Below are positions 9,116 to 63,247 of a DNA stretch of 64,000 nt, one piece after another. The stretch lies in the sequence record NC_048205.1; one strand, given 5' to 3'. This stretch comes from Escherichia phage vB_Eco_mar004NP2. A program made the position numbers and the translations under genes. Position 1 is the first letter of the stretch. The number at the start of each line of letters is the position of its first letter. Under the pieces are notes generated by a model, which saw only the letters and a list, made by a program, of their open reading frames with translations, had not been told where the DNA came from and searched no databases.

Positions 9116-9329
9116 TTTCCACCTGTTCTCTGAAGTTTTGCCCAATACTGTCTAATAGCTCAGCTAATTCTTTATTGCCTTTCTCCATTAAGGTATTAGC
9201 AATAACTTCTAGCATATTAGCGCAGGATTCAACACCATCCTTATAGCCAGTTTCCCAATGCTGCATTAATGCGTTTTCCAAAGCGGCATTTAAACCCTTA
9301 TCTGGTAGCATCGGCTTCGAGAATGCCAT
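9108..9329 (-). CDS. hypothetical protein
   Basis: ORF with AGGAG RBS. Confidence 0.55.
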   Translation of the reverse strand: MAFSKPMLPDKGLNAALENALMQHWETGYKDGVESCANMLEVIANTLMEKGNKELAELLDSIGQNFREQVENA

Positions 9330-9501
9330 AAAGTTTCTCCTCTAGTTCCATAACACGATTTTCATAAGAAGCACGCAACTTTTCAATTGCCAGCGCACGC
9401 ACTGTAACCTCATTAGAATTAATAGCTAACTGGGCTAGGTCTTCTGTTTCCATACGTCCGTTGTAAATTAAGCGATATTTAAGATGTTTTACGTTCTTCA
9501 T
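9298..9501 (-). CDS. hypothetical protein
   Basis: ORF with GAGGAA RBS. Confidence 0.55.
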   Translation of the reverse strand: MKNVKHLKYRLIYNGRMETEDLAQLAINSNEVTVRALAIEKLRASYENRVMELEEKLYGILEADATR

Positions 9502-9710
9502 TCTTGTTCCTCAAACATTTCAATTTCTGCACTAGCAATAGAAAGGGCGGGCCCAGATAAGCACAATCCCACCCTAGGATCAATCTTCCCTTCGTCCATC
9601 CAAGTATTTACTAAACATAATTTAGCTATATCCCCACGGAGAATGGAACCATACGCCCCAGAATCCATAATAAAATAGATACGTTCTTTATCTACCTTGT
9701 GAACTCTCAT
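9498..9710 (-). CDS. hypothetical protein
   Basis: ORF with GAGGAG RBS and T5-type promoter upstream. Confidence 0.6.
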   Translation of the reverse strand: MRVHKVDKERIYFIMDSGAYGSILRGDIAKLCLVNTWMDEGKIDPRVGLCLSGPALSIASAEIEMFEEQE

Positions 9711-9738
9711 AGCTTTCTCCTCTCAAATTTATAAATCA

Positions 9739-9767
9739 ATTATACATAAATTTTTGGCTGAAAGCAA
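9739..9767 (-). promoter_or_regulatory. T5-type early promoter (minus strand), N25-like
   Basis: -35 TTGCTT / 17 bp / -10 TATAAT then CATAAATTTGAGAGGAG leader. Confidence 0.65.
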
Positions 9768-9809
9768 ATAAAATAAAAGCCAGGTCGACTAGCAACCCGG
9801 CTGATTAGC

Positions 9810-11684
9810 TTATTTAGCTCGAATATCCTGATGTTTCACCCTGCCCATAACCTCGTGCTGTTTACCAGGGTTAAATGGACGAGCACCTGGATTTCCAAGA
9901 TACCCACAAACTCGGCGAGTTACTTCAAGAGTTTCGGGATCATGATTACCACAGATAGGGCACTTAAACCCATCTTCGGATGCTACTGTTTCACCTAAGA
10001 ATCCACATTTACCGCAAGAATCCACTGGAGTATTAATACCGAAGTAATGAACTTTACTAGCAGCATAATTAATAACCCATTCCAGTGCATCTGGGAATCG
10101 TTTCATATCTGGTAGTTCTACATAGGAAATGCACCCACCAGAAGCAATAGGCGTAAAGTTAGATTCATAATCAAATTTCACATTGGGAGCAACCTTACGT
10201 TCTACATCAAGGTGGTGCGAGTTAGTGTAGTATCCTTTAGACAGAATATCTTCATGCTCCGGGAAATATTCGCGGTCTAGACGACAAAAACGGTCACATA
10301 GGGATTCTGATGGTGTAGCATACAGGCTATAACCTAACTTAGTTTCTTCCTTCTTCTGATCGACTCTATCCCGCATGTACTGCAATACACGCTGAACAAA
10401 CTTGATGCAGGTCTCGGACATTGTGTCTACATCTTTGCCAAACATGAACTGTAGCATTTCATGGCAACCAATATACCCTAGAGATACAGAAGCACGGTTA
10501 TAGAAATGATCGAATACATATTCATCAGGCTCCAAGCGCAGTCCAAAGGCTCCTGACATATAGAGGATGGGCGCAGCTTTAGCTTGGATGTATTTTAAGC
10601 GATCAACTCTCCACTCCAATGCTTTTAACGCTGTATCCACACGTAGCTCAAGCAAATCAAAGAATAGGTCAATATTTCCTTCAGCTTCGATAGCAATTCT
10701 AGGCAAGTTTACAGAAACAACACCTAAGTTATTACGACCGGCAGTTTCACCATCTTCTGTAGCAGCTAGGAATGAACGGCAGCCCATAGAAACTTTATAG
10801 TCTCCAGTAACTTCCACAACCTTATCATAGCTGATATAATCTGGATACATACGTTCAGCAGTACATTTCATAGCTAACTTCTTGATGTCATAATTAACAT
10901 CTCCTGGTTTCATGTTAACGCCATCACGGAGTACAAATACCAGTTTCGGGAAGATAGCTGTACGCTTATTGATACCTAAACCATCCATGCGTACTTTCAG
11001 TATTGCTTTCTGTACTAGACGTGCTTCCCAAGAAGTTCCTAGACCAAAACCAAAGGTAATAAACGGACTCTGACCATTAGAGTTGAACATGGTATTGATT
11101 TCATATTCTAAACCCTGACAAGCGTCATAGACTTCTTTTTCAGTCATCTCCGTAGCCATTACGGATGCTTTGGCTTCATCCTTAGTCCAACGTTTTGCAA
11201 ACGCATGATTTTTGTCATAGGATTTACGAACATAAGGTGCTAATACTTCATCAAGGCGATCTACAGAAGTACCACCATACTGATGGGAGCTAACTTGAGT
11301 GATAATCTGAGCAGTGATAGCCGCCGCAGTAGTGATAGAGTTTGGAGTGCTAATTTCAGCATTACCAACCTTCATACCATTCTTCAACATATCTTCCAGA
11401 GCTACCAGGCAACAGTTAGTCATGCCTAATGCAGCATAATCAGCATCATGGAAATGAATATCCCCAATCATATGAGCATTTCGAATCTGAATTGGCATTT
11501 CTTCTAGAATCAGATACTTACTCAATTCACCTGCAAGCATATCCCTTTGTGTAGGGAAACGTTCTGAGGGTTTATTGGCATTATTAAACAGCAGCTCTTC
11601 ATCTGCTGACCCTTCGATAATCTCTTTGCAGTTTCTAATTAACGCCTGCATTTCTTTATACTTTAGTTCTTCATTGCGATTCAT
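9810..11684 (-). CDS. nrdD: anaerobic ribonucleoside-triphosphate reductase
   Basis: 624 aa; C-terminal glycyl-radical motif RVCGYLG and Cys cluster CGKCG...CPICG; RBS AAGGAG. Confidence 0.9.
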   Translation of the reverse strand: MNRNEELKYKEMQALIRNCKEIIEGSADEELLFNNANKPSERFPTQRDMLAGELSKYLILEEMPIQIRNAHMIGDIHFHDADYAALGMTNCCLVALEDMLKNGMKVGNAEISTPNSITTAAAITAQIITQVSSHQYGGTSVDRLDEVLAPYVRKSYDKNHAFAKRWTKDEAKASVMATEMTEKEVYDACQGLEYEINTMFNSNGQSPFITFGFGLGTSWEARLVQKAILKVRMDGLGINKRTAIFPKLVFVLRDGVNMKPGDVNYDIKKLAMKCTAERMYPDYISYDKVVEVTGDYKVSMGCRSFLAATEDGETAGRNNLGVVSVNLPRIAIEAEGNIDLFFDLLELRVDTALKALEWRVDRLKYIQAKAAPILYMSGAFGLRLEPDEYVFDHFYNRASVSLGYIGCHEMLQFMFGKDVDTMSETCIKFVQRVLQYMRDRVDQKKEETKLGYSLYATPSESLCDRFCRLDREYFPEHEDILSKGYYTNSHHLDVERKVAPNVKFDYESNFTPIASGGCISYVELPDMKRFPDALEWVINYAASKVHYFGINTPVDSCGKCGFLGETVASEDGFKCPICGNHDPETLEVTRRVCGYLGNPGARPFNPGKQHEVMGRVKHQDIRAK

Positions 11685-39422: not shown

Positions 39423-39916
39423 TCAGTAAGGAAGAGCTAAGAAGGATGTTCGATTACCGAGATGATGGTAATCTTATCTGGAAACCCAGGGAAGGGGACG
39501 AACACTTTAATAAGATATTCGCCGGAACAGTAGCAGGATCTAGACAAAGTACAGGACATAGAGTAGTTGAGCTGTATAATGGTTCCCTAGCTATAGGTAC
39601 ACATAGATTAATCTATGCATGGCATACTGGAGAATGGCCAGAAATAGTTGACCATAAGGATAAAGACTCAACTAATGATAGGTTTGAGAACCTAAGACCT
39701 GCTACAAGATCTGATAACGCTTGTAATCAAAAAGTAAGAAGCGACAACCATTTAGGCGTTAAAAATATTCATAGAAAAACAAATGGGACTTACCAAGTAA
39801 GAATCACTAAACATGGTAAGCAAGTTTCGAAAACACTTAAGAGTTTGGAAGAGGCCATAGAATGGAGAGACGCCAAACTTAAAGAACTCCACGGTGAGTT
39901 TGCGAGTACAGGCTGA
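39419..39916 (+). CDS. HNH homing endonuclease (HNH + AP2-like domain)
   Basis: VDHKDKDSTNDRFENLRPATRSDN HNH motif; AP2-like GVKNIHRK..GTYQVRI segment. Confidence 0.7.
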   Translation: MISKEELRRMFDYRDDGNLIWKPREGDEHFNKIFAGTVAGSRQSTGHRVVELYNGSLAIGTHRLIYAWHTGEWPEIVDHKDKDSTNDRFENLRPATRSDNACNQKVRSDNHLGVKNIHRKTNGTYQVRITKHGKQVSKTLKSLEEAIEWRDAKLKELHGEFASTG

Positions 39917-51744: not shown

Positions 51745-52629
51745 ATGTATAACTTTAAAGATAAACTAAGACAAAATGCTGGTAAAACAAAACCTAAAGA
51801 GAATAATAATGTTCCTAATGCCAAAGTATTACCATTTCCAGAACTGTCTCAAGAAGAAAAAGATAAGTTAGCATTTATGTTTGATGCTCTTCTAGGGCTA
51901 AGTGGACGTTTATATTCCTCACTCAATATTAATGAGAAACGTCTAGTAGAGATGTTCTGTAAACGTTACCAAGTTACTTCAAAGGGCAATTCTTATAAAG
52001 AAGGTGAAAAAGCATTTACAGTCTTAAAGATTAGCGCATATGCACATCGTTTCTTAGTTTATGGATTGCAAATGGAATACTTCACCATCCCATCATTTAG
52101 CTCTTTCCATATCTTTGAAGATGAACGAATGAATATTGATGATCTCTATGGGGATACGTACAAATACTCAGGAAGTCCATTCCACGATGCATTAAGGAGC
52201 TACCCTACTAGTTACTTACCAGTTAGGGCATCTCAAGGTAAAGCTAGCGTTTTTGCTGTTTACTCAGGATCTAAAGCATCGGATCTAGAAACTTATATAT
52301 TTAAAGAGCGTAAATCTGTACTTCCAGATGAAGCATTGTATAGCAATCCATTGCTTCCAGAAAAAGAACCAGAGAAAATTGATGTAACCCCACCAATCCC
52401 ATCTGATTCTCAATATTTAATTTATGAGAAACAAGTTAAGTTATCCCTAGAAATTGGGTTAGTTACACCGCTTGCTGCAGCGTTCATAAATAGATACCTA
52501 GAAATCCCAGATGAGTTCCACCAACGTTATAATACGAATATTCAGATAACGGATGAATTAATTGCGTTAGCAAAAGATACACCTACTGACACTGAGGCGT
52601 ATCAAAAAGCATACCAAGAGTTATTATAA
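51745..52629 (+). CDS. hypothetical protein
   Basis: 294-aa ORF with GGGAGA RBS; last gene before repeat region. Confidence 0.6.
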   Translation: MYNFKDKLRQNAGKTKPKENNNVPNAKVLPFPELSQEEKDKLAFMFDALLGLSGRLYSSLNINEKRLVEMFCKRYQVTSKGNSYKEGEKAFTVLKISAYAHRFLVYGLQMEYFTIPSFSSFHIFEDERMNIDDLYGDTYKYSGSPFHDALRSYPTSYLPVRASQGKASVFAVYSGSKASDLETYIFKERKSVLPDEALYSNPLLPEKEPEKIDVTPPIPSDSQYLIYEKQVKLSLEIGLVTPLAAAFINRYLEIPDEFHQRYNTNIQITDELIALAKDTPTDTEAYQKAYQELL

Positions 52630-53162
52630 TATTCTGCATGTCTCGGTGCACAATACCTGTACCGAGACTCAAATACAAACTCTCGTTGACAGATAGCTAA
52701 ATGTATGTTATCATAACTCTATGAGTTAATAGAATTAACCATTTAGAGTTGCCACACAGAAGGTGTGGTGGTTCAGTAATTTAAAATTACTAACTTGTAG
52801 CGGAGGATACGGAGCGACAGGACAAGTTAATAAGTAATTTAATATAAATTGCTAGAAACATCACGAGACCTTCTGGCGGGGGCAAAGCTCTATATGAGAA
52901 CCCTGGGGGATCTTATATTTAAAATAAAAGTAAAACTTTTGACCATATAATTTACATTCAAGATGATACACCTGTTGCCGCTCATCTGCTAGGATGGCAC
53001 AACACTTTCTTCTAGACTCCTAAGTTTCTAGGAAAACTCTTACACTCTAGGGCAGTTTCTCTCCAACGTTACATATCCTAGGCCGGTTTAATACAGGGCG
53101 GTTATTGGGAGGGCGGTTATTTCTAGAAGACATTTTTCCAAAACACATTTCCAGAAATTACT

Positions 53163-53764
53163 GTCGGATTCGCACATTGTGTTTCTAGAAATTTATGGTC
53201 GGATTTGCACAATTGCCTAAGTTTTCATGGACACATAATCTCCTGAAAATGGCAGCATTATTTCGGGCCGAAGGCCCATGATTGCCTGAGTTTTTAGAGC
53301 CACAAGAATTTTCACTTGTCAAGCTATTTTGCCACCTTTAGCAAATAAAATTTTACTTTATCTCCACTAATCTCAAATTAACCCAAATCTTCTCAACTCT
53401 TCCCCCAAAAACGCAGCAAATCAGGCGTTGCACGCCACCCATGCTGCTCCTCCAGTTTCTCCACTTATTTTCTCTCGCTCTCTCATCTTCTCCTCAAACC
53501 TATACAATCACACACCCTCCAATCGAAGTCACAAAAATCTTGTCGGATTCGCACATCTTAATCCTAGAAAAACCGTGTCGGATTTGCACATATCCCACAG
53601 GATTCGAACGCAGTTCGAGATTGCTGGAGTTTTTGGGAAAATTCATTGTCGGATTTGCACACTATAAAAATTTTTGGGGTCGGATTTGCACACTACCAAA
53701 AATTGTCGGATTCGCACATACACGCCCGCGCGTAATCCATGGTGGCAAATGTCGGATTTGCACA
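53163..53764. repeat. array of 8 dispersed direct repeats (T/G)GTCGGATT(C/T)GCACA
   Basis: Copies at 53163, 53198, 53541, 53576, 53647, 53678, 53704, 53750 with irregular spacing; iteron-like. Confidence 0.8.
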
Positions 53765-53766
53765 AA

Positions 53767-54000
53767 AGCGCAGGGCAATTGCCCTGCGCTAAATACGAAT
53801 GATAATGAGAATCATTCGTATTTAAAAAGCGGAATAAGAATGATAATAGTTCTCATTTAGAAAGTGAAATGAGAATCAATCTCATTTAAGAAAGGGAATG
53901 AGAACTATTCAAAAAATGAAATGATTCTCATTTAAAAAATGGAATGATTATCGGTTAGATAGTGAAATGCGAATGATAATGATTCTCATTTAAGAATGGA
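53767..54000. repeat. cluster of palindromic repeats (GCGCAGGGCAATTGCCCTGCGC and repeated AATGAGAATCATTCTCATT-type units)
   Basis: Perfect 22-bp palindrome at 53767-53788, then at least 6 copies of an inverted-repeat unit; related copy near 54320. Confidence 0.75.
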
Positions 54001-54083
54001 AGCGAGAAACACTATTATTTAAGTTACCCACAGACTTATTAACAGCACGATTTGATTTGACAGAATCCTAGCCATTTTGAGGC

Positions 54084-54128
54084 GTTATCAACAGACTTAT
54101 CCACAGCTTATCCTACTGTATAAATATA
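54084..54128. promoter_or_regulatory. DnaA-box cluster and left arm of inverted repeat
   Basis: TTATCCACA at 54097-54105 plus near-match TTATCAACA; segment is reverse complement of 57608-57649. Confidence 0.6.
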
Positions 54129-54389
54129 CAGTATTCCTACGCAGTGAATAATTCTAATATAGCGTTAAAACGTCCTAAATCGCATTCTAACGCGCTTAAT
54201 TTTGATGGGGATACTAAAACAAGGGCAAAATTGGAGGAGGCTTAAAAATTAGTTAGCTTGCTAACGATCACACAAGGCGACACGTAACACCCTAATCATT
54301 AGCAGGCTAACCATCACGGGCGCGGTTAAATGAGAATCACTCTCATTTGAGAATTGGGGGCACTCCCTGGTAGTTGCGCCCCGTTATTA

Positions 54390-54584
54390 TTAGTCTGGTA
54401 GTCGATGCGTGATCTTTTCCTCCTCCCCGTAGGAATCCACCAAATGCTGATAATAACCATCGTGATCATAAATCACTTTATCATACTCGCCACGCTCGAC
54501 CGCTTGTCGGTTTTCCGGCGTATCGGGCACGTAAAAAACATCAACCATTGTACTGATTTTGGTTACAACAATTTTATTGCTCAT
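54390..54584 (-). CDS. hypothetical protein (pre-early-region operon)
   Basis: Start at Met 54584 with AGGGG RBS; track ORF uses TTG at 54614. Confidence 0.45.
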   Translation of the reverse strand: MSNKIVVTKISTMVDVFYVPDTPENRQAVERGEYDKVIYDHDGYYQHLVDSYGEEEKITHRLPD

Positions 54585-54686
54585 AATAACCCCTAGTAAA
54601 TATATTTTTGCCAATAGTGGCGAACGTTATCGCCACCAGCGGAATCATTTGCAGCCTCAACATTACCCGCGAAAATATATATAATC

Positions 54687-55031
54687 TCATTGCGCCACCT
54701 TTCGAAACGCTGTTTCAATACTATCCGCAGTGGATTGAATATACGCGCCTTTCATTATCAGGCGCTCGGTGCATATCTTGCGAAAAATATTAATAAAATC
54801 ATCTTCATTTTCTGCAATTAACGCCTCACCCATGACCTGAACGTCGCAAGATGCAAAGGTCAAAAATTGAAACGCTAGTTCACGGGCAACGACCGCATTG
54901 ATTTTATAATGCGCCTTGCCTTCATAAATATTAATAACGCCCTTATAAGCTGGGGAAAGCTGATTTAAGTAGTTTGCTAGTAATGCCGGACGGCAATTAG
55001 CAACAAAACGATTGCCTTCATAAATTACCAT
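54687..55031 (-). CDS. hypothetical protein (pre-early-region operon)
   Basis: Start at Met 55031 with GGGGAG RBS. Confidence 0.5.
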   Translation of the reverse strand: MVIYEGNRFVANCRPALLANYLNQLSPAYKGVINIYEGKAHYKINAVVARELAFQFLTFASCDVQVMGEALIAENEDDFINIFRKICTERLIMKGAYIQSTADSIETAFRKVAQ

Positions 55032-55032
55032 T

Positions 55033-55245
55033 TTATAGCACTCCCCGAAACGCAGCGTAAAAGGTGGCAAAATGTTTAACTGTTTCAGCTATCACGTTGC
55101 CCCGTTTATCGAATTTTTTCTCGGTAACACGGAAGGCGTTTTTATTTCGCGCTACATATTCAATTTTACAATCTTCCCGCTCGAACGTGTTAACGTCCAC
55201 CAGCTTAAAGCCTTTTGAACGTGCAAGGGAAACGTTACGAATCAT
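55033..55245 (-). CDS. hypothetical protein (pre-early-region operon)
   Basis: AAGGAG RBS 7 nt upstream. Confidence 0.55.
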   Translation of the reverse strand: MIRNVSLARSKGFKLVDVNTFEREDCKIEYVARNKNAFRVTEKKFDKRGNVIAETVKHFATFYAAFRGVL

Positions 55246-55247
55246 TT

Positions 55248-55397
55248 TTATTCTCCTTTACTAGTCATGCAGCCCAGCAGATAAGAAAATACAGCGATAC
55301 CCGCACCAATAATAACCGCGTGAACGCCGAAAGCTATTGCAAAAAGTGATAAAATAGCGCCCAAGATACCTGCTAGAATAGCTCGAAAAATAACCAT
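55248..55397 (-). CDS. small membrane protein (49 aa)
   Basis: Unlisted hydrophobic ORF MVIFRAILAGILGAILSLFAIAF... with AGGAGG RBS. Confidence 0.4.
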   Translation of the reverse strand: MVIFRAILAGILGAILSLFAIAFGVHAVIIGAGIAVFSYLLGCMTSKGE

Positions 55398-55446
55398 TTG
55401 TGATAGCCTCCTAGTTATCGGGGGATATTATATCCCCCGTTATTAA

Positions 55447-55677
55447 TTACATTAAAACAATTTTTGCAGCTTGTTTTTTGGTGCAATGTTCCGCCTTCAG
55501 GGTATCCAGCAAAAAGCCAGCCGTTTGCTGATCGATTTTATCGGCGTTATATAGTTCCTGAATGGTATTATAGGTTTTAGCAATACCGAACTCCTGCACC
55601 ATTTCATAGATGACAGCACGATTAGATACCCAGCCTTGCGCGGTAAACAGATGACTAGCAGAAGAATAAGCAACCAT
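55447..55677 (-). CDS. hypothetical protein (pre-early-region operon)
   Basis: Start at Met 55677, GGAGG RBS 6 nt upstream. Confidence 0.5.
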   Translation of the reverse strand: MVAYSSASHLFTAQGWVSNRAVIYEMVQEFGIAKTYNTIQELYNADKIDQQTAGFLLDTLKAEHCTKKQAAKIVLM

Positions 55678-55783
55678 TTTAAGCCTCCAAATTTTTGGGA
55701 AAATTTTCAACCGTCCTTAAACGGTGTAAAGGCATTATAACAAAAAAGGCCACCAATTATGGCGACCTTTACAAAACTTTACA

Positions 55784-56278
55784 TTAAACTACTTGTAATG
55801 TTTCAATATTGAAACATCGTTTCAATTCGTCATGCAAAACAGCGTATTCATCCCATCGGGTACTATCAGGGATATAAACAAGCTGTTTTAGTCGGTTTGC
55901 GTATATTACCGCTTTATTTCCGATTATTTCAGCGCCACCATATTTAATAATTAATTTCATGACGGAATTAATAGGATCGCCGCCGTTTACATATGTGCCG
56001 GATTTACTTAATTGATAATGATAAAGGCTTGCATATACATTATCATTCTCATACCATTCGCCCGTTTCCTCATCTTCATAGCCATCGCTACCAAAACGAG
56101 AAGCATTATCAACAGCCATTTCATGAGCGAAAGCGTCGAGATCCGTACCAGCAGGAACAAAATATTCCTCAGTATTCCCTTCACCGCAATAGCCAGTATG
56201 ACAATCGACCAAAATGATCATATCATGTTTAGCCTTGCTCACTTCCCCTAGCGAAAACCCATATTTTTCCTCAGCCAT
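55784..56278 (-). CDS. hypothetical protein (pre-early-region operon)
   Basis: 164 aa, AGGAGG RBS. Confidence 0.6.
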   Translation of the reverse strand: MAEEKYGFSLGEVSKAKHDMIILVDCHTGYCGEGNTEEYFVPAGTDLDAFAHEMAVDNASRFGSDGYEDEETGEWYENDNVYASLYHYQLSKSGTYVNGGDPINSVMKLIIKYGGAEIIGNKAVIYANRLKQLVYIPDSTRWDEYAVLHDELKRCFNIETLQVV

Positions 56279-56343
56279 TTATTAGCCTCCTATTAATTAA
56301 TAAGGGAATAGTAAAGCGGGGAAACAATCCCCGCTAAATATTA

Positions 56344-57336
56344 TTACTCGCTTTCGGTGCTAGTGGTAAAAGTAGAAATATCGATACCTTTCACCATTTC
56401 ATCAATCATTTCAGCGATGTTAAAACTTTGCACCATTTCTAGCATTGCCGCTTCCATAGCTGCGCCTGCTACCGCTTTCGCTTTCTGGTTATTCGGGGCG
56501 TACTGGTCAACCGCTACGCTCAGCAGGTTAGCAATAACTACCCGACCAATCGGCGTATCAATATAACCTTTAATCATAAACGGCGCTTTTTTAGCCGCTA
56601 CTTTCGTGATTTGAGTCAATGCAATTTTGCCAGCTTCCAGTTTTGCAGCATTTACAACAGCGGATTTATTAGCGGCAACGATATTAGCGATCTTGGTCAT
56701 GGTATTATTTCCTTTGTTTTCAGTAGTTTGAGTGTTAACGCTTTGAGTGTTAGAATTTACAGCATGTTTTTCCGTGTTGTCAATAGGCTGATCTTCCTCC
56801 TTCCAGAAAGAAAAGCCCGCGCTTTCAATATCCCCATCATATACATAAGGGTACACTTCCGACGGTAACAAAAAATTACCGTTATCATCAAAGGCCATTA
56901 CAGCCGCGAAACGATACCCGTCACAATCCGACCGATTCCAGCCAACTGATAAATAACGCCAAAATGAATCAAGAAAATTTTCAATATCATAAAGATCATT
57001 GGGGTTGGCTTCATAATTTTCTATTGAAAAAACTTCTAAGCCTGCCCCAGTATCATAGGCTTTTACTGTGCTACCTTTTACGATTATGAAATCAGTATCC
57101 GGCCCTCGACTAGTGAGCAATTGATAATCTTGATTATATAAAACAAGCGTTGCCCCTTGTTTATATAACGGTAGAAAACTATTCATATCATAGGCATCGA
57201 AATCACCAAAAAAGTTTTGGTGAATAGTTTCAGCCTTGTTAATAAAATGTTTAATGCTGGTTGTTCTGCTACCGTCCAGCAGGTTACGCAGCGCACCTTT
57301 TAAGACGGTTGCGTTATCTGGTTTATATAGCCTCAT
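56344..57336 (-). CDS. hypothetical protein (pre-early-region operon)
   Basis: 330 aa, GAGGGAGG RBS; first gene of minus-strand operon. Confidence 0.6.
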   Translation of the reverse strand: MRLYKPDNATVLKGALRNLLDGSRTTSIKHFINKAETIHQNFFGDFDAYDMNSFLPLYKQGATLVLYNQDYQLLTSRGPDTDFIIVKGSTVKAYDTGAGLEVFSIENYEANPNDLYDIENFLDSFWRYLSVGWNRSDCDGYRFAAVMAFDDNGNFLLPSEVYPYVYDGDIESAGFSFWKEEDQPIDNTEKHAVNSNTQSVNTQTTENKGNNTMTKIANIVAANKSAVVNAAKLEAGKIALTQITKVAAKKAPFMIKGYIDTPIGRVVIANLLSVAVDQYAPNNQKAKAVAGAAMEAAMLEMVQSFNIAEMIDEMVKGIDISTFTTSTESE

Positions 57337-57607
57337 TTGTTGGCCTCCCTCGTTAATCGGTGAGTGAATGATAAAGGCAATTTTCTAGCATAGGCAAATA
57401 TTATTTTACCTTTTTATTTTCCTTGCCTAGCGCCTAGTTTTATGCTAACCGCGCAGCGGTACAGTAAAGAGCAAAACACGGTGAAGCCACCAGGGCGACG
57501 GGTGAAGGCTTCACTTTAATATTACCCCACCGCATTTAGCTCGTTAGAAAGCGTTTTAGGCCGCCTAAAATTGATTGCAGTTGTTAACACTACCTTTTTA
57601 CCCTGTA

Positions 57608-57710
57608 TATTTATACAGTAGGATAACATGTGGATAAGTCTGTGGATAAGTCCTTATATCGTCGCCTATCGTGTCAAATCATTTTGTGCTGTTAATAAAC
57701 TTGTGGATAA
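57608..57710. promoter_or_regulatory. DnaA-box cluster and right arm of inverted repeat
   Basis: TGTGGATAA at 57629, 57641, 57702; CTGTATATTTATACAGTAGGATAA mirrors 54.1 kb copy. Confidence 0.6.
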
Positions 57711-57993
57711 CTTAAATGATAGTGGTTCTCACTTAGGACGATAGTTTCTTATAGTTATTATTTCTATCGGTTACGATTTCTTATAATTATTATTTCTCAT
57801 TAATTTATAAGTATATTATATATCATGAAATAGTTAGTTGGCTAATGAGATTTTCCGTGATTAATAGTCTGCTAACAGTTCCGGCTGTTACAATCCACCA
57901 GCATGATTATCATCCTAGCAACTATTAGTCTGCTATCTTTCCGATGCATACTAACAAATAAAAGTCAATTAATTTATTTCATAAAATAAGTAG

Positions 57994-58069
57994 TTATCCA
58001 CTGGAAAATAAAAGTCAAGTGGATAACTAGGAAAATTTCATTTTTGCTTTTGGGGATAAGTTATCAACA
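57994..58069. promoter_or_regulatory. additional DnaA-box-like sites
   Basis: TTATCCACT, AGTGGATAA, TTATCAACA near-consensus boxes. Confidence 0.45.
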
Positions 58070-58482
58070 AGGCTAGAATGCGCCTAAAACGCCCTATAAC
58101 GCGATGAAGTTTTTAGCCATGCCATTGCATTGCCTACCCTCGTTTATCGCTACCACGAGCTTTTTAGTTTTTGTCAAGTAGGGCAAGGCAAATATAAATG
58201 AAAAAATTACTTGCCAACCTGCTGGGTTTTATGGTATTCGCGCGCCCGTTTCCTTTAATTTTAGTGCGCCGCGCCCAGGTCGCCGCACGGTGTCCGGTGG
58301 CATTTTGTCTTTACGTTTCTTTACAAAAATAAGGTTGCGCCATTTTTACTATTTGCTATTATTTATCTCGTAGGGCGGCAATGACGAACTACACGGCGGG
58401 AAGTTTACCGCCGCGCTCTTTAAAAATTGGGTACATCTTAAAGTCTATCGGCGGTAAACTTATATTATAAGGAATCGCAGAT

Positions 58483-58686
58483 ATGAAACAAACTTTATTG
58501 ATCACTGGTAAACCAGCTAAAAAATTAGATGGTACTACTAAAAAATTGTTGACAATAGCCCAGCAATCCGTAAAATACCGATTTGCTCAGTACAAGAAAG
58601 GCCGCCAGCAGGGTTTAGAAATGATCTGGCGTAATATTATGATCGACCTGAAAGAAAATCATAAAAAACTGCAAAAAACAGTTTGA
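58483..58686 (+). CDS. hypothetical basic protein
   Basis: 67-aa ORF with AAGGAA RBS. Confidence 0.5.
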   Translation: MKQTLLITGKPAKKLDGTTKKLLTIAQQSVKYRFAQYKKGRQQGLEMIWRNIMIDLKENHKKLQKTV

Positions 58687-58916
58687 CACCCTAGCCGATA
58701 GGCTTTAAGATGTACCCAGTTCGATGAGAGCGATAACTTGATACAATTTGACGGTTAGGTGATTCCCCATAAATCATCCTGCCCCCTAACTGGGATATAG
58801 CAGCCTGCGTGGAGTTCCTTAAATTGATTATAGCGGTGAGCGGATTGTTGCTTATTACCTGCTACTTTCTAGCAGGTAATGCGGAACAATCCCCTAAATA
58901 ACTTGGAGTTTATACT

Positions 58917-59168
58917 ATGCAAAACGTTATTACCGCGCCTAAAATTGGTCAATCCGTTTTTATTCCTTTCGTTACTAAAACGGATGAACTAACCGGAAAA
59001 GCCGAACGTATTAAAGGTGCGGCGCTTATGCCGTTTGATACAATCGACGCGGTATACGCTGAAAATGAACGTAGTAACAACGGCAAAACCGTTTTTAGCG
59101 TTCGCGTTAAATCCGGCGACGTTGTAAAGGTTGTACAGCGTAACGAAAAATGGGAAGCTGTAGCGTAA
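58917..59168 (+). CDS. hypothetical protein
   Basis: TGGAGTTTAT RBS context; hairpin follows. Confidence 0.55.
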   Translation: MQNVITAPKIGQSVFIPFVTKTDELTGKAERIKGAALMPFDTIDAVYAENERSNNGKTVFSVRVKSGDVVKVVQRNEKWEAVA

Positions 59169-59264
59169 TAGTGTTACTTTTATATCCCCCAGTAGTTCGG
59201 GGGATATAACGATTAACATTATGTTAATCTTATCCCTTAAATTAAACTAATAGGAGTTTTTACC

Positions 59265-59672
59265 ATGACTAACGTTAAAACCGCAAAATTTGCTTGGAAT
59301 GAAGAAAACACTCAAAAAGCTGTTTCTATGTACCAGCAGTTAATTAATGAAAACGGTTTAGATTTCGCAAATAGCGACGGTTTAAAAGAGATTGCAAAAG
59401 CAGTGGGCGCGTCTTCTCCCGTGTCTGTTCGCTCAAAATTGACCAGCGCAAAAGCGTATCAGAAAAGCGATAAGCCTCGCAAAGTTGGCGGCGGTAGCTC
59501 AATCCGCAAAGCTCACTATGTACGCGTTATCGCTAAACATGCTATTGATTCCGGCATTATTAAAGACGCCGACGATCTGGCAAGTCTGGAAAGTGCAAAA
59601 CTTGAAACGCTGGACGCCGTAGCGCAACTGTTAGGCGTTGCCGATGAAGTAAAACAGGCCGCAGGTGAATAA
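59265..59672 (+). CDS. hypothetical protein
   Basis: AGGAGTTTTT RBS context. Confidence 0.55.
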   Translation: MTNVKTAKFAWNEENTQKAVSMYQQLINENGLDFANSDGLKEIAKAVGASSPVSVRSKLTSAKAYQKSDKPRKVGGGSSIRKAHYVRVIAKHAIDSGIIKDADDLASLESAKLETLDAVAQLLGVADEVKQAAGE

Positions 59673-59728
59673 ATTTAATTAGTGGGGAATATTCCCCACT
59701 ATAATTTCCCTTTGACTGGAGTTTTAAA

Positions 59729-59926
59729 ATGATCTTTTACCCCACTGAATCGTTAATTTTAGGCTTATTTATTATGGCGGCCTCGTTATTATTCGCTTAT
59801 TTTCAAAATGATTTAGACTCATATTATTTTAAACGTAAGTCTAAATTGGCAAAGCGTTTAGGTCTGATTTGTTTTATTGCCGCCATTGCTTGTGGTGTTA
59901 GTTCTAGCCTTATGCCTTTAAATTAA
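59729..59926 (+). CDS. hypothetical membrane protein
   Basis: Two TM helices; TGGAGTTTTA RBS. Confidence 0.5.
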   Translation: MIFYPTESLILGLFIMAASLLFAYFQNDLDSYYFKRKSKLAKRLGLICFIAAIACGVSSSLMPLN

Positions 59927-60023
59927 TGTTGCAAATTATAACGCCTATTATTCAAGGCGTTATATTTGGCAATATTTGCCAATAACAAACGTTTTTTAAT
60001 CCCTTTAATGGAGTTTTATTAAT

Positions 60024-61688
60024 ATGATTATTTCCGCAGAAAAACAAACCGTTATCCTGAAAATGGCCGCTGACTTTAATTTCTATGGTAAACGTCTGCG
60101 CGCTACTAAACTGGAGGTCTGCGACGATATATCAAAAGCGGTCTACGATACAACAAAACACTCGACCGCTATCTGCGACTGGTTGGAAGCAAATAAACCA
60201 GCTAAACCGAAAGCGGCGAAAGTAGCAAAAGCCATTAAAAACGATGAGCGTCCAGAAGCGGCGGGGATTGTTTCTAGCACGGTTGAGCAATGGGAAGTAA
60301 AGCAGGGTAAACGCTTTATTATTACGTCGATTCAGAATAATACTTTCCCGCATAAAAACTTTTTAGCCTCATTGGAGCAATTTGCTAAATATATCGGCGC
60401 TGATTTGCTGGTTAGCAAGTTTATTTATAACAAAAACGGTTTTCAAAATGGCGAGGGTGCAGAAGGAATAAAATATGATTCCGCATTTGACAAATATATC
60501 TGCAATAAAAACGTGTTTTTAAATAACCGCCGTTTTGCTTTCATGGCTGAAATTAACGTTTTGCCAACCGCAGATTATCCGCTTTCTGGATTCGCTGAAA
60601 CTGCAACGGCGCTTAATCTGGAAGGTCTGGCAATTGGTCACGCTAAAATTACCGCTGAAAGCGTGCCAGCTTTAAAAGGTGAAGTAGTGCGCCGTATGTA
60701 CTCAACCGGAACGGCAACGCTCAAAAACTACATTCAGCAGAAAGCAGGACAAAAGGCCGAGGCGCTGCATAACTTCGGTGCGCTAATTGTCGAGTTCGAC
60801 GAGGACGGGGAATTTTTTGTACGCCAGCTCGAAACGATGGACGAAAGCGGGGTATTTTATGATCTGAATGTGTGCGCTACTCCTGCCGGATGCTATGAGA
60901 CATCGGGGCATGTTTTAGGCTTGCAATACGGCGATATTCACGCAGAAAAACTAGATGATGATTGTGCCGTTGCGTCATGGGCTGGCGAAAATAGCTTGCT
61001 TGATATTCTCAAGCCTAAATATCAGTTTATCCATGACGTGCATGATTTTACATCACGCAACCATCACAACCGCGCATCCGGTGTATTCCTAGCAAAACAA
61101 TACGCCGCCGGACGTGATAAGGTATTAGATGATCTTATCGATACGGGGCGCGTGCTGGAATCAATGGAACGTGATTTCTCGCAAACAATCATTGTTGAAT
61201 CTAATCACGATTTGGCGCTATCCCGTTGGCTTGATGATCGTAATGCTAACATTAAAGACGATCCAGCAAACGCGGAACTATATCACCGCCTAAATGCCGC
61301 GATTTATGGAGCTATTGCAGAAAAAGACGATACTTTCAACGTGCTAGATTATGCGCTGCGCAAGGTTGCAGGTTGTGAGTTTAACGCCATTTTTCTAACT
61401 ACTGACCAATCTTTCAAGATTGCAGGCATTGAATGCGGCGTACACGGTCACAACGGCATTAACGGCAGCCGTGGCAATCCTAAACAATTTAAGAAATTGG
61501 GCAAATTAAACACCGGACACACTCACACCGCCAGCATTTATGGCGGCGTGTATACCGCTGGCGTAGCTGGTAGTCTGGACATGGGTTACAACGTTGGCGC
61601 GTCAAGCTGGACGCAAACGCATTTAATTACCTATGCAAACGGTCAGCGCACTTTGATTGACTTTAAAAACGGTAAATTCTTTGCGTAA
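60024..61688 (+). CDS. A1-like pre-early protein, calcineurin-like metallophosphoesterase
   Basis: 554 aa; GDIHAE, ESNHD, VHGHNG, GHTHTASIY phosphoesterase motifs; size matches T5 A1 (about 556 aa, from memory). Confidence 0.65.
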   Translation: MIISAEKQTVILKMAADFNFYGKRLRATKLEVCDDISKAVYDTTKHSTAICDWLEANKPAKPKAAKVAKAIKNDERPEAAGIVSSTVEQWEVKQGKRFIITSIQNNTFPHKNFLASLEQFAKYIGADLLVSKFIYNKNGFQNGEGAEGIKYDSAFDKYICNKNVFLNNRRFAFMAEINVLPTADYPLSGFAETATALNLEGLAIGHAKITAESVPALKGEVVRRMYSTGTATLKNYIQQKAGQKAEALHNFGALIVEFDEDGEFFVRQLETMDESGVFYDLNVCATPAGCYETSGHVLGLQYGDIHAEKLDDDCAVASWAGENSLLDILKPKYQFIHDVHDFTSRNHHNRASGVFLAKQYAAGRDKVLDDLIDTGRVLESMERDFSQTIIVESNHDLALSRWLDDRNANIKDDPANAELYHRLNAAIYGAIAEKDDTFNVLDYALRKVAGCEFNAIFLTTDQSFKIAGIECGVHGHNGINGSRGNPKQFKKLGKLNTGHTHTASIYGGVYTAGVAGSLDMGYNVGASSWTQTHLITYANGQRTLIDFKNGKFFA

Positions 61689-61744
61689 ATAATTAATCCC
61701 CTAGCGGCTTGAAATATAGCCGCTATTACAGGAGCTAAATTAGA

Positions 61745-62002
61745 ATGAAAGTTACATTACCCAAAACGCTAGACGAAAAAGCATTTATTTCACCGGATGA
61801 AATGGAATCCGATAAAGTTTACAGCTTCGGGCCTATTCTAGCCGCCAAAACTAATACTGATGGGATTATTACGGTCGATTATCGTGATAATGATATTGTA
61901 CCCTTTGACGATGATGGTGCTTTTTATGAGTGGCTAAGCGATAATAATTTACCCGTAAACGGTGAATTAACGCCGTACCAGATGCAGATTATTATCAAAT
62001 AA
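61745..62002 (+). CDS. hypothetical protein
   Basis: 85-aa ORF with AGGAG RBS. Confidence 0.5.
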   Translation: MKVTLPKTLDEKAFISPDEMESDKVYSFGPILAAKTNTDGIITVDYRDNDIVPFDDDGAFYEWLSDNNLPVNGELTPYQMQIIIK

Positions 62003-62040
62003 ATTAAATCCATTATTAAACTAATTGGAGTTTTATAAAC

Positions 62041-62433
62041 ATGAAAAAGCAAAATATTCCATTTGACCGCGCTCAATCCTCAATTGTTCTGGTTTATTCT
62101 AATGGTGAGCGTTACCACGTCGAGGCGGGGCACGTTATTGATGAATTGCTAGATTTCAATGACGCTTTGCAGGTTACAACATTTGCATATATGCAAGGCA
62201 AACTAACTAGCCATATTAAAGCAAAAGGCGTTTATGTTGACACGGTGAAACAAGAAACGATTATCATCGACGCAGTAAAATCCGGTCTAACCTTTGCAGT
62301 TGTCGCGCCTTGCCCCGCTTGCCTTGATGATCAATTGATTTCTGCAAAAGTATATACTTGTGCGGGGATTCGTTCCCATGTATCAGGTGAGGATGTTAGT
62401 TTTATCGCCGATGCGTTGGCTTATGGTCTTTAA
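62041..62433 (+). CDS. hypothetical pre-early protein (possibly A2-like)
   Basis: 130 aa next to A1-like gene; TGGAGTTTTA RBS; assignment by position and size only. Confidence 0.4.
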   Translation: MKKQNIPFDRAQSSIVLVYSNGERYHVEAGHVIDELLDFNDALQVTTFAYMQGKLTSHIKAKGVYVDTVKQETIIIDAVKSGLTFAVVAPCPACLDDQLISAKVYTCAGIRSHVSGEDVSFIADALAYGL

Positions 62434-62512
62434 TAGTTAATTTATTATTACCCGCTTATAAATAGCGGGTAATGCTGAATTAATCTAATCCCTTAAATGG
62501 AGAACGTAACAA

Positions 62513-63247
62513 ATGAATAAAGCTATCATGAATCTTTCCCGCAGCTTCCCGCATATTTCCCGCGTCATGATTTGGGATTTAGACGGCACTATCATTAATT
62601 CTTTCCATCGTGTAGCACCCTGCTTTGATAGCGAGGGCAATTTAGATTTAAATAAGTATAAAAATGAAGCGTGTAAACACCATTTAATAATGCAAGATAC
62701 TTTATTGCCATTGGTTGAATATATGCGCCAGTGCATGAATGACGCAAATACTTTAAACATTATTTGCACCGCTCGACTGATGAGTAAGTCGGACTATTAT
62801 TTCTTGCGTAAACAAGGGTTGCGCGGTCGTGGTAATAGTAATATCCGCGTATTTTCCCGCGATACACTACACAAATATTTTAAAGCTGATAAGGTTAGCG
62901 AAATATACCACAGCAAAGACGCAGTATATAAATCTTATTATTTTGAATTATTTAAACAGTTATATCCTAACGCTGATTTTACAATGATTGATGATCATAA
63001 AGGCGTGCTATCAGCGGCAGCGTCATACGGATTTAAAACGCTGGACGCACAAGCCGTTAATGATATTCTATCAATCGGCGTGGCATTGATAGGTGAAACC
63101 TTTATTGATGAATCTCTCGACGATGATAATGATTATCAATTCCTAGCTGACCGTTTAAAATTATGCTGGGAAGGTATGACCGAGGAAGAACGCGCAGAAT
63201 ATAGTTGCAGTCCTCAACAATATATTGAGAAATTAAAAGTTGCCTAA
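62513..63247 (+). CDS. dmp: HAD-family 5'-deoxyribonucleotidase (dmp-like)
   Basis: RVMIWDLDGTIIN HAD motif I; 244 aa; pre-early location. Confidence 0.6.
   Translation: MNKAIMNLSRSFPHISRVMIWDLDGTIINSFHRVAPCFDSEGNLDLNKYKNEACKHHLIMQDTLLPLVEYMRQCMNDANTLNIICTARLMSKSDYYFLRKQGLRGRGNSNIRVFSRDTLHKYFKADKVSEIYHSKDAVYKSYYFELFKQLYPNADFTMIDDHKGVLSAAASYGFKTLDAQAVNDILSIGVALIGETFIDESLDDDNDYQFLADRLKLCWEGMTEEERAEYSCSPQQYIEKLKVA

What the first reader, a model, noticed from the sequence alone, without database searches (positions are those of the whole stretch)
54084..57710. Seven-gene operon of unknown function bounded by inverted repeats carrying DnaA boxes
A 3.5-kb segment with seven minus-strand ORFs (54390-57336, each with a strong RBS, one a 49-aa membrane peptide) is flanked by imperfect inverted repeats of about 50 bp (54097-54128 vs 57608-57649) that each contain consensus DnaA boxes. 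None of the proteins shows a motif I can recognise. The segment is visibly more GC-rich than the early region and sits where T5-like phages carry first-step-transfer genes used for host takeover and defence evasion, so these are candidate anti-defence or host-shutoff proteins, or a module acquired separately.
Basis: partly seen in the sequence, partly recalled or inferred. Interest (0 to 1): 0.75.

Follow-up and report, generated by a model that had tools for sequence, protein, structure and literature searches.

The report
Known T5 pre-early genes and repeats
This is the well-described right half of the "first-step-transfer" end of a T5-like phage: early host-takeover genes flanked by a published, conserved pair of inverted repeats carrying DnaA boxes, so it is real but not new.

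Summary
Seven minus-strand ORFs (54390-57336) lie between inverted repeats that are larger than reported: 132 nt at 80% ungapped, about 220 nt with gaps. All four perfect TTATCCACA boxes in the 64-kb window fall in the two arms.

It is not new. The window is a T5-like Tequintavirus, about 98% identical to Salmonella phage PMBT29. The segment is the right-hand pre-early unit of the terminal repeat: orthologues of T5.011, .012, .013, .014, .015 and .017, a T5.016 remnant, and one accessory 164-aa gene.

The repeats are T5's named IRC-spacer-IRD and IRD'-spacer-IRC', with eight paired DnaA boxes. They were described in 1987, 2005, 2015 and 2020 and proposed as part of the injection stop signal.

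In T5, gene 015 encodes an Ung-dependent nickase, genes 011, 013 and 015 are toxic, and hegG-017 is deletable. The repeats do not mark a mobile or invertible cassette: order and orientation are fixed in 30 loci, the arms show no concerted evolution, and GC is ordinary.

One possibly unreported detail: each arm carries a near-consensus LexA box beside the DnaA boxes, conserved across four genera.

The parts
53542..53764 (.). Direct repeats GTCGGATTYGCACA in the injection-stop (iss) non-coding region. Six copies lie here. Further copies are at 53163, 53198 and 51400, beyond the inferred inner boundary of the terminal repeat (about 53.3 kb).
   Evidence: 9 copies against 0.03 expected. The region aligns with T5 9.3-11.5 kb at 88%, which T5 annotates as iss.
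53797..54019 (.). Cluster of AATGAGAATCATTCTCATT-type palindromic and direct repeats in Repeat Region 3, just outside the left arm. The estimated T5 FST shear point (about 9618) maps near window 53.92 kb.
   Evidence: families D1-D5, I2, I4. The mapping is inferred from the alignment and from Davison's preprint.
54000..54225 (.). Left inverted-repeat arm, equivalent to T5 IRD'-spacer-IRC' (Repeat Region 3, part of iss). DnaA-box pairs lie at 54024-54044 and 54085-54105.
   Evidence: It is 91% identical to T5 9317-9542. Named and described in bioRxiv 10.1101/866236.
54114..54133 (.). LexA-box-like palindrome TACTGTATAAATATACAGTA inside the left arm.
   Evidence: It matches 19 of 20 positions of the consensus TACTG(TA)5CAGTA (consensus from my own knowledge).
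54390..54584 (-). T5.017 homologue (64 aa from the ATG; phrog_6973).
   Evidence: 89% amino-acid identity.
54592..54648 (-). Remnant of the N-terminus of T5.016. The rest of the gene is deleted here.
   Evidence: a 100% match to the first ~19 residues only. One search shows no full-length homologue.
54687..55031 (-). T5.015 homologue (114 aa from the ATG). By T5 locus-tag numbering this is the Ung-dependent abasic-site nickase.
   Evidence: 93% identity. PMC8201957. The 114-aa SIA3lw orthologue is annotated as an AP endonuclease. RefSeq and PHROG place that label on the 70-aa neighbour instead.
55033..55245 (-). T5.014 homologue (70 aa, basic, pI 10).
   Evidence: 100% identity.
55248..55397 (-). 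T5.013 homologue: a 49-aa membrane peptide with two hydrophobic segments. T5 gp013 is reported toxic and lytic.
   Evidence: bioRxiv 10.64898/2026.04.02.716235.
55447..55677 (-). T5.012 homologue (76 aa from the ATG).
   Evidence: 83% identity.
55745..55770 (-). Terminator-like hairpin (11 pairs plus a T-run) after the 164-aa gene.
55784..56278 (-). Accessory 164-aa acidic protein (pI 4.5; phrog_6741). It is absent from T5 and was detected in 17 of the 30 IMG/VR loci (15 at 84% identity or more, two divergent at 32% and 48%). The predicted fold has no PDB match.
56315..56335 (-). Terminator-like hairpin after the T5.011 homologue, at the same position as T5's annotated terminator.
56344..57336 (-). 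T5.011 homologue (330 aa, Pfam DUF7566). It has a variable N-terminal domain and a nearly invariant helical C-terminal domain. T5 gp011 is toxic and disturbs the nucleoid.
57340..57430 (-). Promoter region of the right-hand pre-early unit, assigned by position and homology to the promoter annotated upstream of T5.011.
   Evidence: T5 6411-6489; alignment; two 9/12 consensus matches; experimentally characterised in T5, according to Annor et al..
57510..57734 (.). Right inverted-repeat arm, equivalent to T5 IRC-spacer-IRD (Repeat Region 2). It lies in the divergent control region between the two pre-early units. DnaA-box pairs are at 57629-57649 and 57690-57710, and the LexA-box-like palindrome is at 57601-57620.
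57990..58110 (.). Repeat-Region-1-like elements: DnaA-like boxes in palindromic arrangement (57994-58069) and a third copy of the CCTAAAACGC..TAACG motif (58082-58108), inverted relative to 57535-57561.
   Evidence: I5. The T5 equivalent is I3.

Best explanation
Identity (shown). Window 53.3-63.4 kb is the terminal-repeat (first-step-transfer, FST) DNA of a T5-like Tequintavirus, reverse-complemented relative to the standard T5 map.

The flagged 54.0-57.7 kb segment is its right-hand pre-early transcription unit. It holds orthologues of T5.011, .012, .013, .014, .015 and .017, a T5.016 remnant and one accessory 164-aa gene. It is transcribed away from the divergent control region it shares with the hdi-A2-A1-dmp unit and towards the injection stop signal.

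The flanking inverted repeats are T5's IRC-spacer-IRD (Repeat Region 2) and IRD'-spacer-IRC' (Repeat Region 3), each with two pairs of DnaA boxes.

Gene function (from T5 literature). These are non-essential host-takeover genes expressed during the injection pause. Gene 015 nicks abasic sites made by host Ung, 013 damages the membrane, and 011 disturbs the nucleoid.

Repeat function (inferred; sub-claim confidence about 0.35). The arms are not transposon ends and do not pair with each other. They are two copies of a cis-acting protein-docking module: a DnaA-box pair, a 3-bp gap, then a near-consensus LexA-type palindrome 8-10 bp away.

No phage protein exists in the cell when FST DNA enters. 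Pre-existing host DNA-binding proteins are therefore the most plausible readers: DnaA as Davison proposed, and possibly LexA. The outer arm, next to the shear point, would contribute to the injection pause. The inner arm would act in the divergent pre-early control region.
For: Identity:
- Megablast gives 98% identity to Salmonella phage PMBT29 and hits in 470 T5-like records.
- Gene-by-gene orthology to T5.
- The same inverted repeat is in T5 at 6098-6296 and 9350-9541, and the four arms align.
- Both arms are present in 30 of 30 IMG/VR loci and in 540 phage records, typically two places per record.
- The repeats and their DnaA boxes are published (bioRxiv 10.1101/866236; PMC10644984).

Gene function:
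- PMC8201957 and bioRxiv 10.64898/2026.04.02.716235.

Docking-module reading:
- Within-phage arm-to-arm identity (0.678) equals between-phage identity (0.673). Identity between orthologous arms is 0.85 (Repeat Region 2) and 0.91 (Repeat Region 3). Only shared motifs are maintained, so neither pairing nor gene conversion explains the repeat.
- The blocks most conserved in both arms are the DnaA boxes and the palindrome.
- The DnaA pair plus palindrome persists in Sugarlandvirus (Klebsiella) and Pogseptimavirus (Vibrio) phages.
- All perfect DnaA boxes of the window are in the arms.
- Only two AT-spaced CTGT-N8-ACAG sites occur in the window, one in each arm.
Against: - No experiment has yet shown that DnaA or LexA binds here, or that the arms cause the injection stop (PMC10644984).
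- T5 with hegG-017 deleted is viable, though with small plaques. I infer this deletion removes the inner arm, but its exact end-points were not available.
- Davison reports that some T5-like phages lack IRC/IRD altogether.
- Four of 24 distinct inner arms carry TTGT instead of CTGT in the palindrome.
- The palindrome could equally be the site of the dimeric phage DNA-binding protein A2.
- A promoter overlapping the palindrome is only weakly supported, and its -35 element is not conserved in T5 (my reading of the alignment).
Confidence: 0.9

Rival explanations
1. The repeat-bounded segment is a mobile or separately acquired cassette, such as a composite transposon or an invertible segment, carrying anti-defence genes.
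For: - Inverted repeats flank a gene block whose content varies. The inner distance is 2740-3959 bp, and the 164-aa gene, 016 and 017 come and go.
- Davison notes that this coding block is far less conserved than its flanks.
Against: - No transposase, integrase or invertase appears among the seven products.
- Both arms are present at the same place in 30 of 30 loci, always with 011 next to the inner arm and hdi/007 on the opposite strand outside it, so no inversion is seen.
- The arms are only about 68% identical, and are no more alike within a phage than between phages.
- GC content is ordinary.
Confidence: 0.03
2. The arms are transcriptional operators rather than an injection brake. Host DnaA and LexA, or phage factors, would gate the pre-early promoters: the inner arm in the divergent control region, and the outer arm as a roadblock or terminator preventing read-through into iss.
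For: - The inner arm lies in the 1.1-kb divergent region between 011 and 009/hdi.
- A 10/12 promoter-like site (57584-57611, + strand) has its -10 element inside the LexA-like palindrome.
- The outer arm begins about 165 bp downstream of the last gene's stop codon.
Against: - The promoter-like -35 element is not conserved in T5 (my reading of the alignment).
- The experimentally mapped promoters lie elsewhere: upstream of 011 and within hdi.
- Pre-early shut-off genetically requires A1, not host factors.
Confidence: 0.2
3. The conserved palindrome and repeats are recognition sites for phage proteins: the dimeric DNA-binding protein A2, with A1. These would release or cut the paused DNA. On this reading the likeness to a LexA box is coincidental.
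For: - A1 and A2 are required for second-step transfer, and A2 is a dsDNA-binding dimer.
- Davison proposes that A1/A2 act at a palindrome in this region.
- A palindrome suits a dimer.
Against: - The 20-mer matches the gamma-proteobacterial LexA consensus at 19 of 20 positions, and variation among phages falls in the AT-rich centre, which even flips AAA/TTT. This is as expected for LexA half-site recognition (my own knowledge).
- A2 shows no sequence similarity to LexA or to any Pfam or PDB entry.
- A2 is absent when the DNA first enters.
Confidence: 0.2
4. The conserved non-coding arms persist mainly as homology anchors that let co-infecting T5-like phages exchange the variable accessory-gene block by recombination.
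For: - Highly conserved flanks (85-91% between phages) surround a mosaic gene block.
- The T5.011 gene is itself a mosaic, with a variable N-terminal part and a near-invariant C-terminal part.
Against: - This does not explain why the two anchors are inverted copies of one another.
- It does not explain why the conserved columns coincide with protein-binding motifs at fixed spacing.
- Exchange could be a by-product of conservation rather than its cause.
Confidence: 0.1

Closest known systems
Phage T5 IRC-spacer-IRD (Repeat Region 2) and IRD'-spacer-IRC' (Repeat Region 3, injection stop signal). Described by Heusterspreute 1987, Wang 2005, Davison 2015, and Davison 2020 (bioRxiv 10.1101/866236).
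   Same: - Same position, orientation and sequence. The outer arm is 91% identical to T5's, and the inner arm about 74%.
- Same eight DnaA or DnaA-like boxes, in pairs separated by 3 bp.
   Different: - There is no difference of kind.
- This phage has all eight boxes, four of them perfect, whereas T5 has seven.
- The distance between arms is 3.3-3.5 kb here against about 3.2 kb in T5.
T5 right-hand pre-early genes T5.011-T5.017
   Same: - Orthologues of 011, 012, 013, 014, 015 and 017 in the same order and on the same strand.
- The same promoter position and the same terminator after 011.
   Different: - An extra 164-aa gene (phrog_6741) lies between 011 and 012.
- T5.016 is reduced to a remnant of about 19 codons.
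- gp013 is 10 residues shorter.
- There is no hegG homing endonuclease next to the inner arm.
oriC-type clusters of DnaA boxes
   Same: Closely spaced, oriented 9-mers matching TTATCCACA.
   Different: - The boxes lie in pre-early DNA of a phage whose replication origins are reported near the genome centre.
- No replication role is proposed.
- No DNA-unwinding element was tested.
LexA (SOS) operators of gamma-proteobacteria, consensus TACTG(TA)5CAGTA
   Same: A 16-bp CTGT-N8-ACAG palindrome with an all-A/T spacer, matching 19 of 20 positions of the consensus, in both arms and across four phage genera.
   Different: - It is not shown to overlap a functional promoter.
- It sits in a virulent phage with no known SOS link.
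- Binding has not been tested.

Membership tests
T5-type first-step-transfer (pre-early) region, right-hand unit | Lies inside the long terminal repeat, between the divergent pre-early control region and the iss non-coding repeats | tested here: met
   - Flanked by homologues of 009, hdi, 007, A2, 005, A1, 002 and dmp on one side, and by iss repeats plus a T5.018 homologue on the other.
- Related records annotate the region as terminal repeat.
T5-type first-step-transfer (pre-early) region, right-hand unit | Orthologues of T5.011-T5.017 in conserved order, transcribed opposite to A1/A2 | tested here: met
   - Six of seven T5 genes are present at 68-100% amino-acid identity, and 016 survives as a remnant.
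- The strand is opposite to A1/A2.
T5-type first-step-transfer (pre-early) region, right-hand unit | The segment is duplicated at both genome ends (direct terminal repeat) | tested here: inconclusive
   - Only one copy is in the window.
- Complete relatives show 4 arm matches per record, and collapsed assemblies show 2.
IRC-spacer-IRD / IRD'-spacer-IRC' repeat pair of T5-like phages | An inverted repeat of about 131 bp, one copy upstream of 011 and one at the gene-proximal edge of iss | tested here: met
IRC-spacer-IRD / IRD'-spacer-IRC' repeat pair of T5-like phages | Eight DnaA or DnaA-like boxes, arranged in pairs separated by 3 bp | tested here: met
   - Pairs at 54024/54036, 54085/54097, 57629/57641 and 57690/57702.
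- The rule is stated.
IRC-spacer-IRD / IRD'-spacer-IRC' repeat pair of T5-like phages | Acts in cis to stop DNA injection | not testable with these tools
   This is a hypothesis even for T5. Experimental studies are lacking.
Composite transposon or IS-bounded module | Encodes, or lies next to, a transposase or recombinase | tested here: not met
   Pfam, PHROG and PADLOC scans of all seven products give no such domain.
Composite transposon or IS-bounded module | Presence/absence polymorphism of the whole bounded unit; near-identical arms | tested here: not met
   - Both arms are present in 30 of 30 loci at the same site.
- The arms are about 68% identical, with no within-genome excess.
Invertible DNA segment (Gin/Hin/Cin type) | Both orientations found among relatives; invertase gene present | tested here: not met
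   - Orientation relative to hdi/007 is identical in all 30 loci.
- No invertase is present.
LexA (SOS) operator | CTGT-N8-ACAG palindrome with an A/T-rich spacer close to TACTG(TA)5CAGTA | tested here: met
   - Sites at 54114-54133 and 57601-57620.
- Conserved in 44 of 48 distinct arms and in two further genera.
LexA (SOS) operator | Bound by LexA and overlapping a repressed promoter | not testable with these tools
   There is only a weak consensus promoter match over the inner-arm site, and no binding data exist.
Replication origin with DnaA boxes | DnaA-box cluster with an adjacent unwinding element and origin activity | not tested
   - The boxes are present.
- The literature places T5 origins near the genome centre.
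- No unwinding element was sought.

The most novel reading that the evidence does not exclude
The palindrome conserved in both arms is a genuine LexA operator. The arms would then be composite docking sites for two host proteins, DnaA and LexA, that are already in the cell when the first 8% of the genome enters.

Binding of these proteins would help hold the DNA at the pause or gate pre-early transcription. LexA self-cleavage, triggered by A1-driven destruction of host DNA, would help time the release. This would link two-step injection to the SOS system.

I found no mention of LexA in the T5 papers I could read. The 1987, 2005 and 2015 papers were not available to me.
Probability: 0.15. Interest if true: 0.6.

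Novelty: already known. Interest (0 to 1): 0.2.

Why it matters
As submitted, the finding re-discovers a textbook oddity of phage T5: conserved repeats with DnaA boxes around the dispensable half of the pre-early genes. Recognising this prevents a false 'novel anti-defence island' call.

Three items still have some value:
- How T5 stops and restarts DNA injection is a 60-year-old open question. The comparative data here argue that the two arms are kept as protein-docking modules rather than as pairing partners or transposon ends.
- The data also point to a second candidate host factor, LexA, which can be tested with simple gel-shift and mutant-host experiments.
- The 164-aa accessory protein and the two-domain gp011 family remain without a recognisable fold. 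They are reasonable targets for host-takeover studies.

Tried and rejected
- **Mobile cassette or invertible segment: rejected.** There is no recombinase, order and orientation are fixed in 30 loci, and the arms show no concerted evolution.
- **Foreign origin by composition: rejected.** GC is 0.402 against 0.390 +/- 0.017.
- **Arm-to-arm pairing or gene conversion: rejected.** Within-phage arm identity equals between-phage identity.
- **Known RNA families: none.** The only hit is a sub-threshold SprD match in the AT-rich repeats (29 bits against a gathering score of 100), which I treat as chance.
- **Is A2 LexA-like? No similarity found** in Pfam or PDB sequences.
- **Which ORF Mahata et al. 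called T5.015: unresolved.** No sizes or primers are in the text and no supplements are held. I assigned it by locus tag, consistent with Annor et al.'s use of NC_005859 numbering.
- **Davison 2015 (PMC4743489) is not held.** I could not check whether it mentions a LexA site.

Full report
**1. What is in the sequence**

The ORF list shows seven minus-strand ORFs between 54390 and 57336, of 330, 164, 87, 49, 70, 127 and 74 codons counted from the first possible start. Counted from their ATG codons the last five are 76, 49, 70, 114 and 64 residues. Most are preceded by GGAGG-type ribosome-binding sites.

The repeat finder returns an inverted repeat with arms at 54000-54131 and 57603-57734. It is 132 nt long and 80% complementary. 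A second co-linear block pairs 54171-54200 with 57534-57563. In a gapped alignment the similarity runs over about 220 columns.

All four perfect DnaA boxes (TTATCCACA) in the 64-kb window lie in the two arms. Shuffles predict 0.73, and none of 100 shuffles reaches 4. With one mismatch allowed, 11 of 35 matches fall in 54.0-58.1 kb. Read directly from the sequence, the boxes form four pairs separated by 3 bp: 54024/54036, 54085/54097, 57629/57641 and 57690/57702.

Two parts of the description do not hold:
- The GC content of the block is 0.402. That is within one standard deviation of 3-kb windows across the window (0.390 +/- 0.017), and 20% of such windows are as high or higher.
- Terminator-like hairpins after the first and second genes (56335-56315 and 55770-55745) argue against a simple uninterrupted operon.

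**2. What it is**

Megablast of 53400-58400 finds 470 phage records, nearly all T5-like phages of Salmonella, Escherichia and Klebsiella. The best are 98% identical: Salmonella phage PMBT29 and Escherichia phage vB_Eco_mar004NP2.

Comparison with the annotated T5 genome (NC_005859) and with Salmonella phage SIA3lw places the segment inside the long terminal repeat. This is the first-step-transfer (FST) DNA that enters the cell first. The window is reverse-complemented relative to the T5 map.

Homologues of 009, hdi (008), 007, A2, 005, A1, 002 and dmp occupy 58381-63244 on the plus strand. The homologue of the first unique gene, T5.018, lies at 52065-52628. Window 52066-54225 aligns with T5 9317-11500 at 88%.

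The seven ORFs map to T5 as follows:

| Window ORF | T5 gene | Amino-acid identity |
|---|---|---|
| 330 aa | T5.011 | 79% |
| 164 aa | none | absent from T5 |
| 76 aa | T5.012 | 83% |
| 49 aa | T5.013 | 68% |
| 70 aa | T5.014 | 100% |
| 114 aa | T5.015 | 93% |
| 64 aa | T5.017 | 89% |

T5.016 survives only as a remnant of about 19 codons at 54592-54648. Every product falls in a PHROG family, and gp011 matches Pfam DUF7566.

**3. The repeats are known**

T5 itself has the same inverted repeat, at 6098-6296 and 9350-9541. Davison's preprint (bioRxiv 10.1101/866236) names the two copies IRC-spacer-IRD (Repeat Region 2) and IRD'-spacer-IRC' (Repeat Region 3, inside the injection stop signal). It traces the DnaA boxes to a 1987 paper and the repeat nomenclature to the 2005 genome paper.

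[quoted passage not shown] It proposes that membrane-bound DnaA holds the entering DNA at these sites. The BF23 genome paper repeats the observation and notes that experimental tests are lacking (PMC10644984).

I confirmed the conservation independently. Both arms occur in all 30 IMG/VR loci retrieved with the gp011 homologue. The outer arm is found in 540 phage records, usually twice per record and four times where both terminal repeats are assembled.

**4. The genes are partly characterised**

In T5, 13 genes of unknown function were screened for toxicity, and 008, 011 and 015 were toxic. The 015 product binds host Ung and nicks the abasic sites it creates (PMC8201957).

A 2026 preprint found 011, 013 and 015 toxic (bioRxiv 10.64898/2026.04.02.716235):
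- 011 gives uneven nucleoids.
- 013 gives lysis-like ghosts.
- 015 gives guillotined nucleoids.

The same preprint showed that a phage lacking hegG through 017 is viable with smaller plaques. It also reported that 011 is among the more widely conserved pre-early genes.

But these are named, conserved, partly studied genes.

**5. Tests of the alternative readings**

Mobile or invertible cassette:
- None of the seven products has a recombinase, transposase or defence-related domain.
- In all 30 loci the gene order is the same. Gene 011 always abuts the inner arm, and hdi and 007 always lie outside it on the other strand.
- Only the content varies. The inner distance is 2740-3959 bp, and the 164-aa gene, 016 and 017 are variably present.

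Pairing or gene conversion between arms:
- The two arms of one phage are no more alike (0.678) than arms from different phages (0.673).
- Each arm is 0.85-0.91 identical to its orthologue elsewhere.
- The duplication is therefore old. The arms evolve independently, and what is shared is a set of short motifs at fixed spacing.

That pattern fits protein-docking sites. It does not fit a structure formed by the two arms.

**6. A detail that may be new**

The most conserved block common to both arms, apart from the DnaA boxes, is a palindrome 8-10 bp from the inner DnaA pair. It reads TACTGTATAAATATACAGTA at 54114-54133 and CCCTGTATATTTATACAGTA at 57601-57620.

It matches the LexA operator consensus of gamma-proteobacteria, TACTG(TA)5CAGTA, at 19 of 20 positions (consensus from my own knowledge). 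These are the only two AT-spaced CTGT-N8-ACAG sites in the window.

The palindrome is widely conserved:
- It is present in 44 of 48 distinct arms from 24 phages. The other four have TTGT in place of CTGT.
- It is present in 32 of 34 fetched loci.
- Both arms of Klebsiella phage KpGranit (Sugarlandvirus) carry it.
- One arm of Vibrio phage VB_Vhy_SJ1 (Pogseptimavirus) carries it, again right after a DnaA-box pair.
- Variation among phages sits in the A/T centre, which even flips between AAA and TTT. This is what half-site recognition would allow.

Neither Davison's preprint, nor the BF23 paper, nor two literature searches mention LexA in this context.

The site could instead belong to the dimeric phage protein A2. 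A2 shows no sequence similarity to LexA or to anything in Pfam or the PDB.

**7. Proteins without assignable function**

gp011 has a variable N-terminal alpha/beta domain, a low-confidence (probably disordered) linker and an almost invariant helical C-terminal domain:
- The N-terminal domain has pLDDT near 88 and is only 36% identical to the most distant relatives.
- The C-terminal domain is 91-98% identical to those same relatives.
- Synonymous sites in the C-terminal part are only moderately more conserved than in the N-terminal part.

No fold match was found for gp011. No Rfam family matches the region.

**8. How it most likely works**

Shown: the identity of the genes and repeats, their conservation, and the independence of the two arms.

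From the literature: pre-early expression during the injection pause, the toxicity of 011, 013 and 015, the Ung-dependent nicking by 015, and the dispensability of the block.

Inferred: the arms are two copies of a host-factor docking module made of DnaA boxes plus a LexA-type palindrome. The copy beside the shear point contributes to the pause, and the copy in the divergent control region acts there.

I put about 0.35 on this mechanism. Its rivals are a purely transcriptional role, A1/A2 sites, and recombination anchors. The viability of the hegG-017 deletion, and of natural phages lacking the inner arm, shows that at least the inner copy is not essential.

**9. Verdict**

This is a real, non-random feature that is already described in the T5 literature. 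The interpretation as a novel or separately acquired module is not supported.

Interest is low (0.2). The LexA-type palindrome is a small, cheaply testable lead on the long-standing question of how T5 pauses injection.

Noticed in passing
window 54114-54133 and 57601-57620; also L001 6213-6228 and 9411-9426; L034 6117-6132 and 9744-9759; L033 6032-6051: A near-consensus LexA (SOS) box lies 8-10 bp from a DnaA-box pair in both repeat arms. It is conserved across Tequintavirus, Epseptimavirus-like, Sugarlandvirus and Pogseptimavirus phages. It is not mentioned in the T5 papers I could read.
   Followed up: partly
window 56344-57336 (minus strand): The gp011 family (DUF7566) is a two-part mosaic. 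The N-terminal ~190 residues drop to 36% identity between lineages, while the C-terminal ~125 residues stay 91-98% identical. Annor et al. could not clone the wild-type T5 gene and succeeded only with a recoded copy.
   Followed up: partly
[not shown]
   Followed up: yes
window 54592-54648 (minus strand): A remnant of the first ~19 codons of T5.016 is all that remains of that gene. This fits reports that 016 is among the least frequent pre-early genes.
   Followed up: yes
window 55033-55245 versus 54687-55031; L001 8086-8298 versus 8300-8644: Database labels disagree on which ORF is the Ung-dependent abasic-site nickase. RefSeq NC_005859 and PHROG 4227 put the name on the 70-aa T5.014. Locus-tag numbering and the SIA3lw annotation point to the 114-aa T5.015.
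   Followed up: partly
window 51400, 53163, 53198 and 53542-53764: There are nine copies of GTCGGATTYGCACA. Its core, ATTYGCACA, is one mismatch from a DnaA box. Three copies lie beyond the inferred inner end of the terminal repeat, one of them inside the early region at 51400.
   Followed up: no
proteins P0139-P0204 (relatives of window 56344-57336): Many UniRef entries call DUF7566 proteins 'DNA N-6-adenine methyltransferase'. Neither Pfam, nor PDB sequence search, nor the predicted fold supports that name.
   Followed up: partly
window 57990-58110: A third repeat region lies between the inner arm and gene 009. DnaA-like boxes face each other at 57994-58026 and 58051-58069, and there is a third copy of the CCTAAAACGC..TAACG motif (58082-58108). 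This corresponds to T5 Repeat Region 1. No hegG homing endonuclease separates it from the inner arm here.
   Followed up: no
window 39473-39889: There is a weak protein match (28% over 150 residues) to the T5 HNH endonuclease hegG in the early region. It is probably another homing-endonuclease gene.
   Followed up: no
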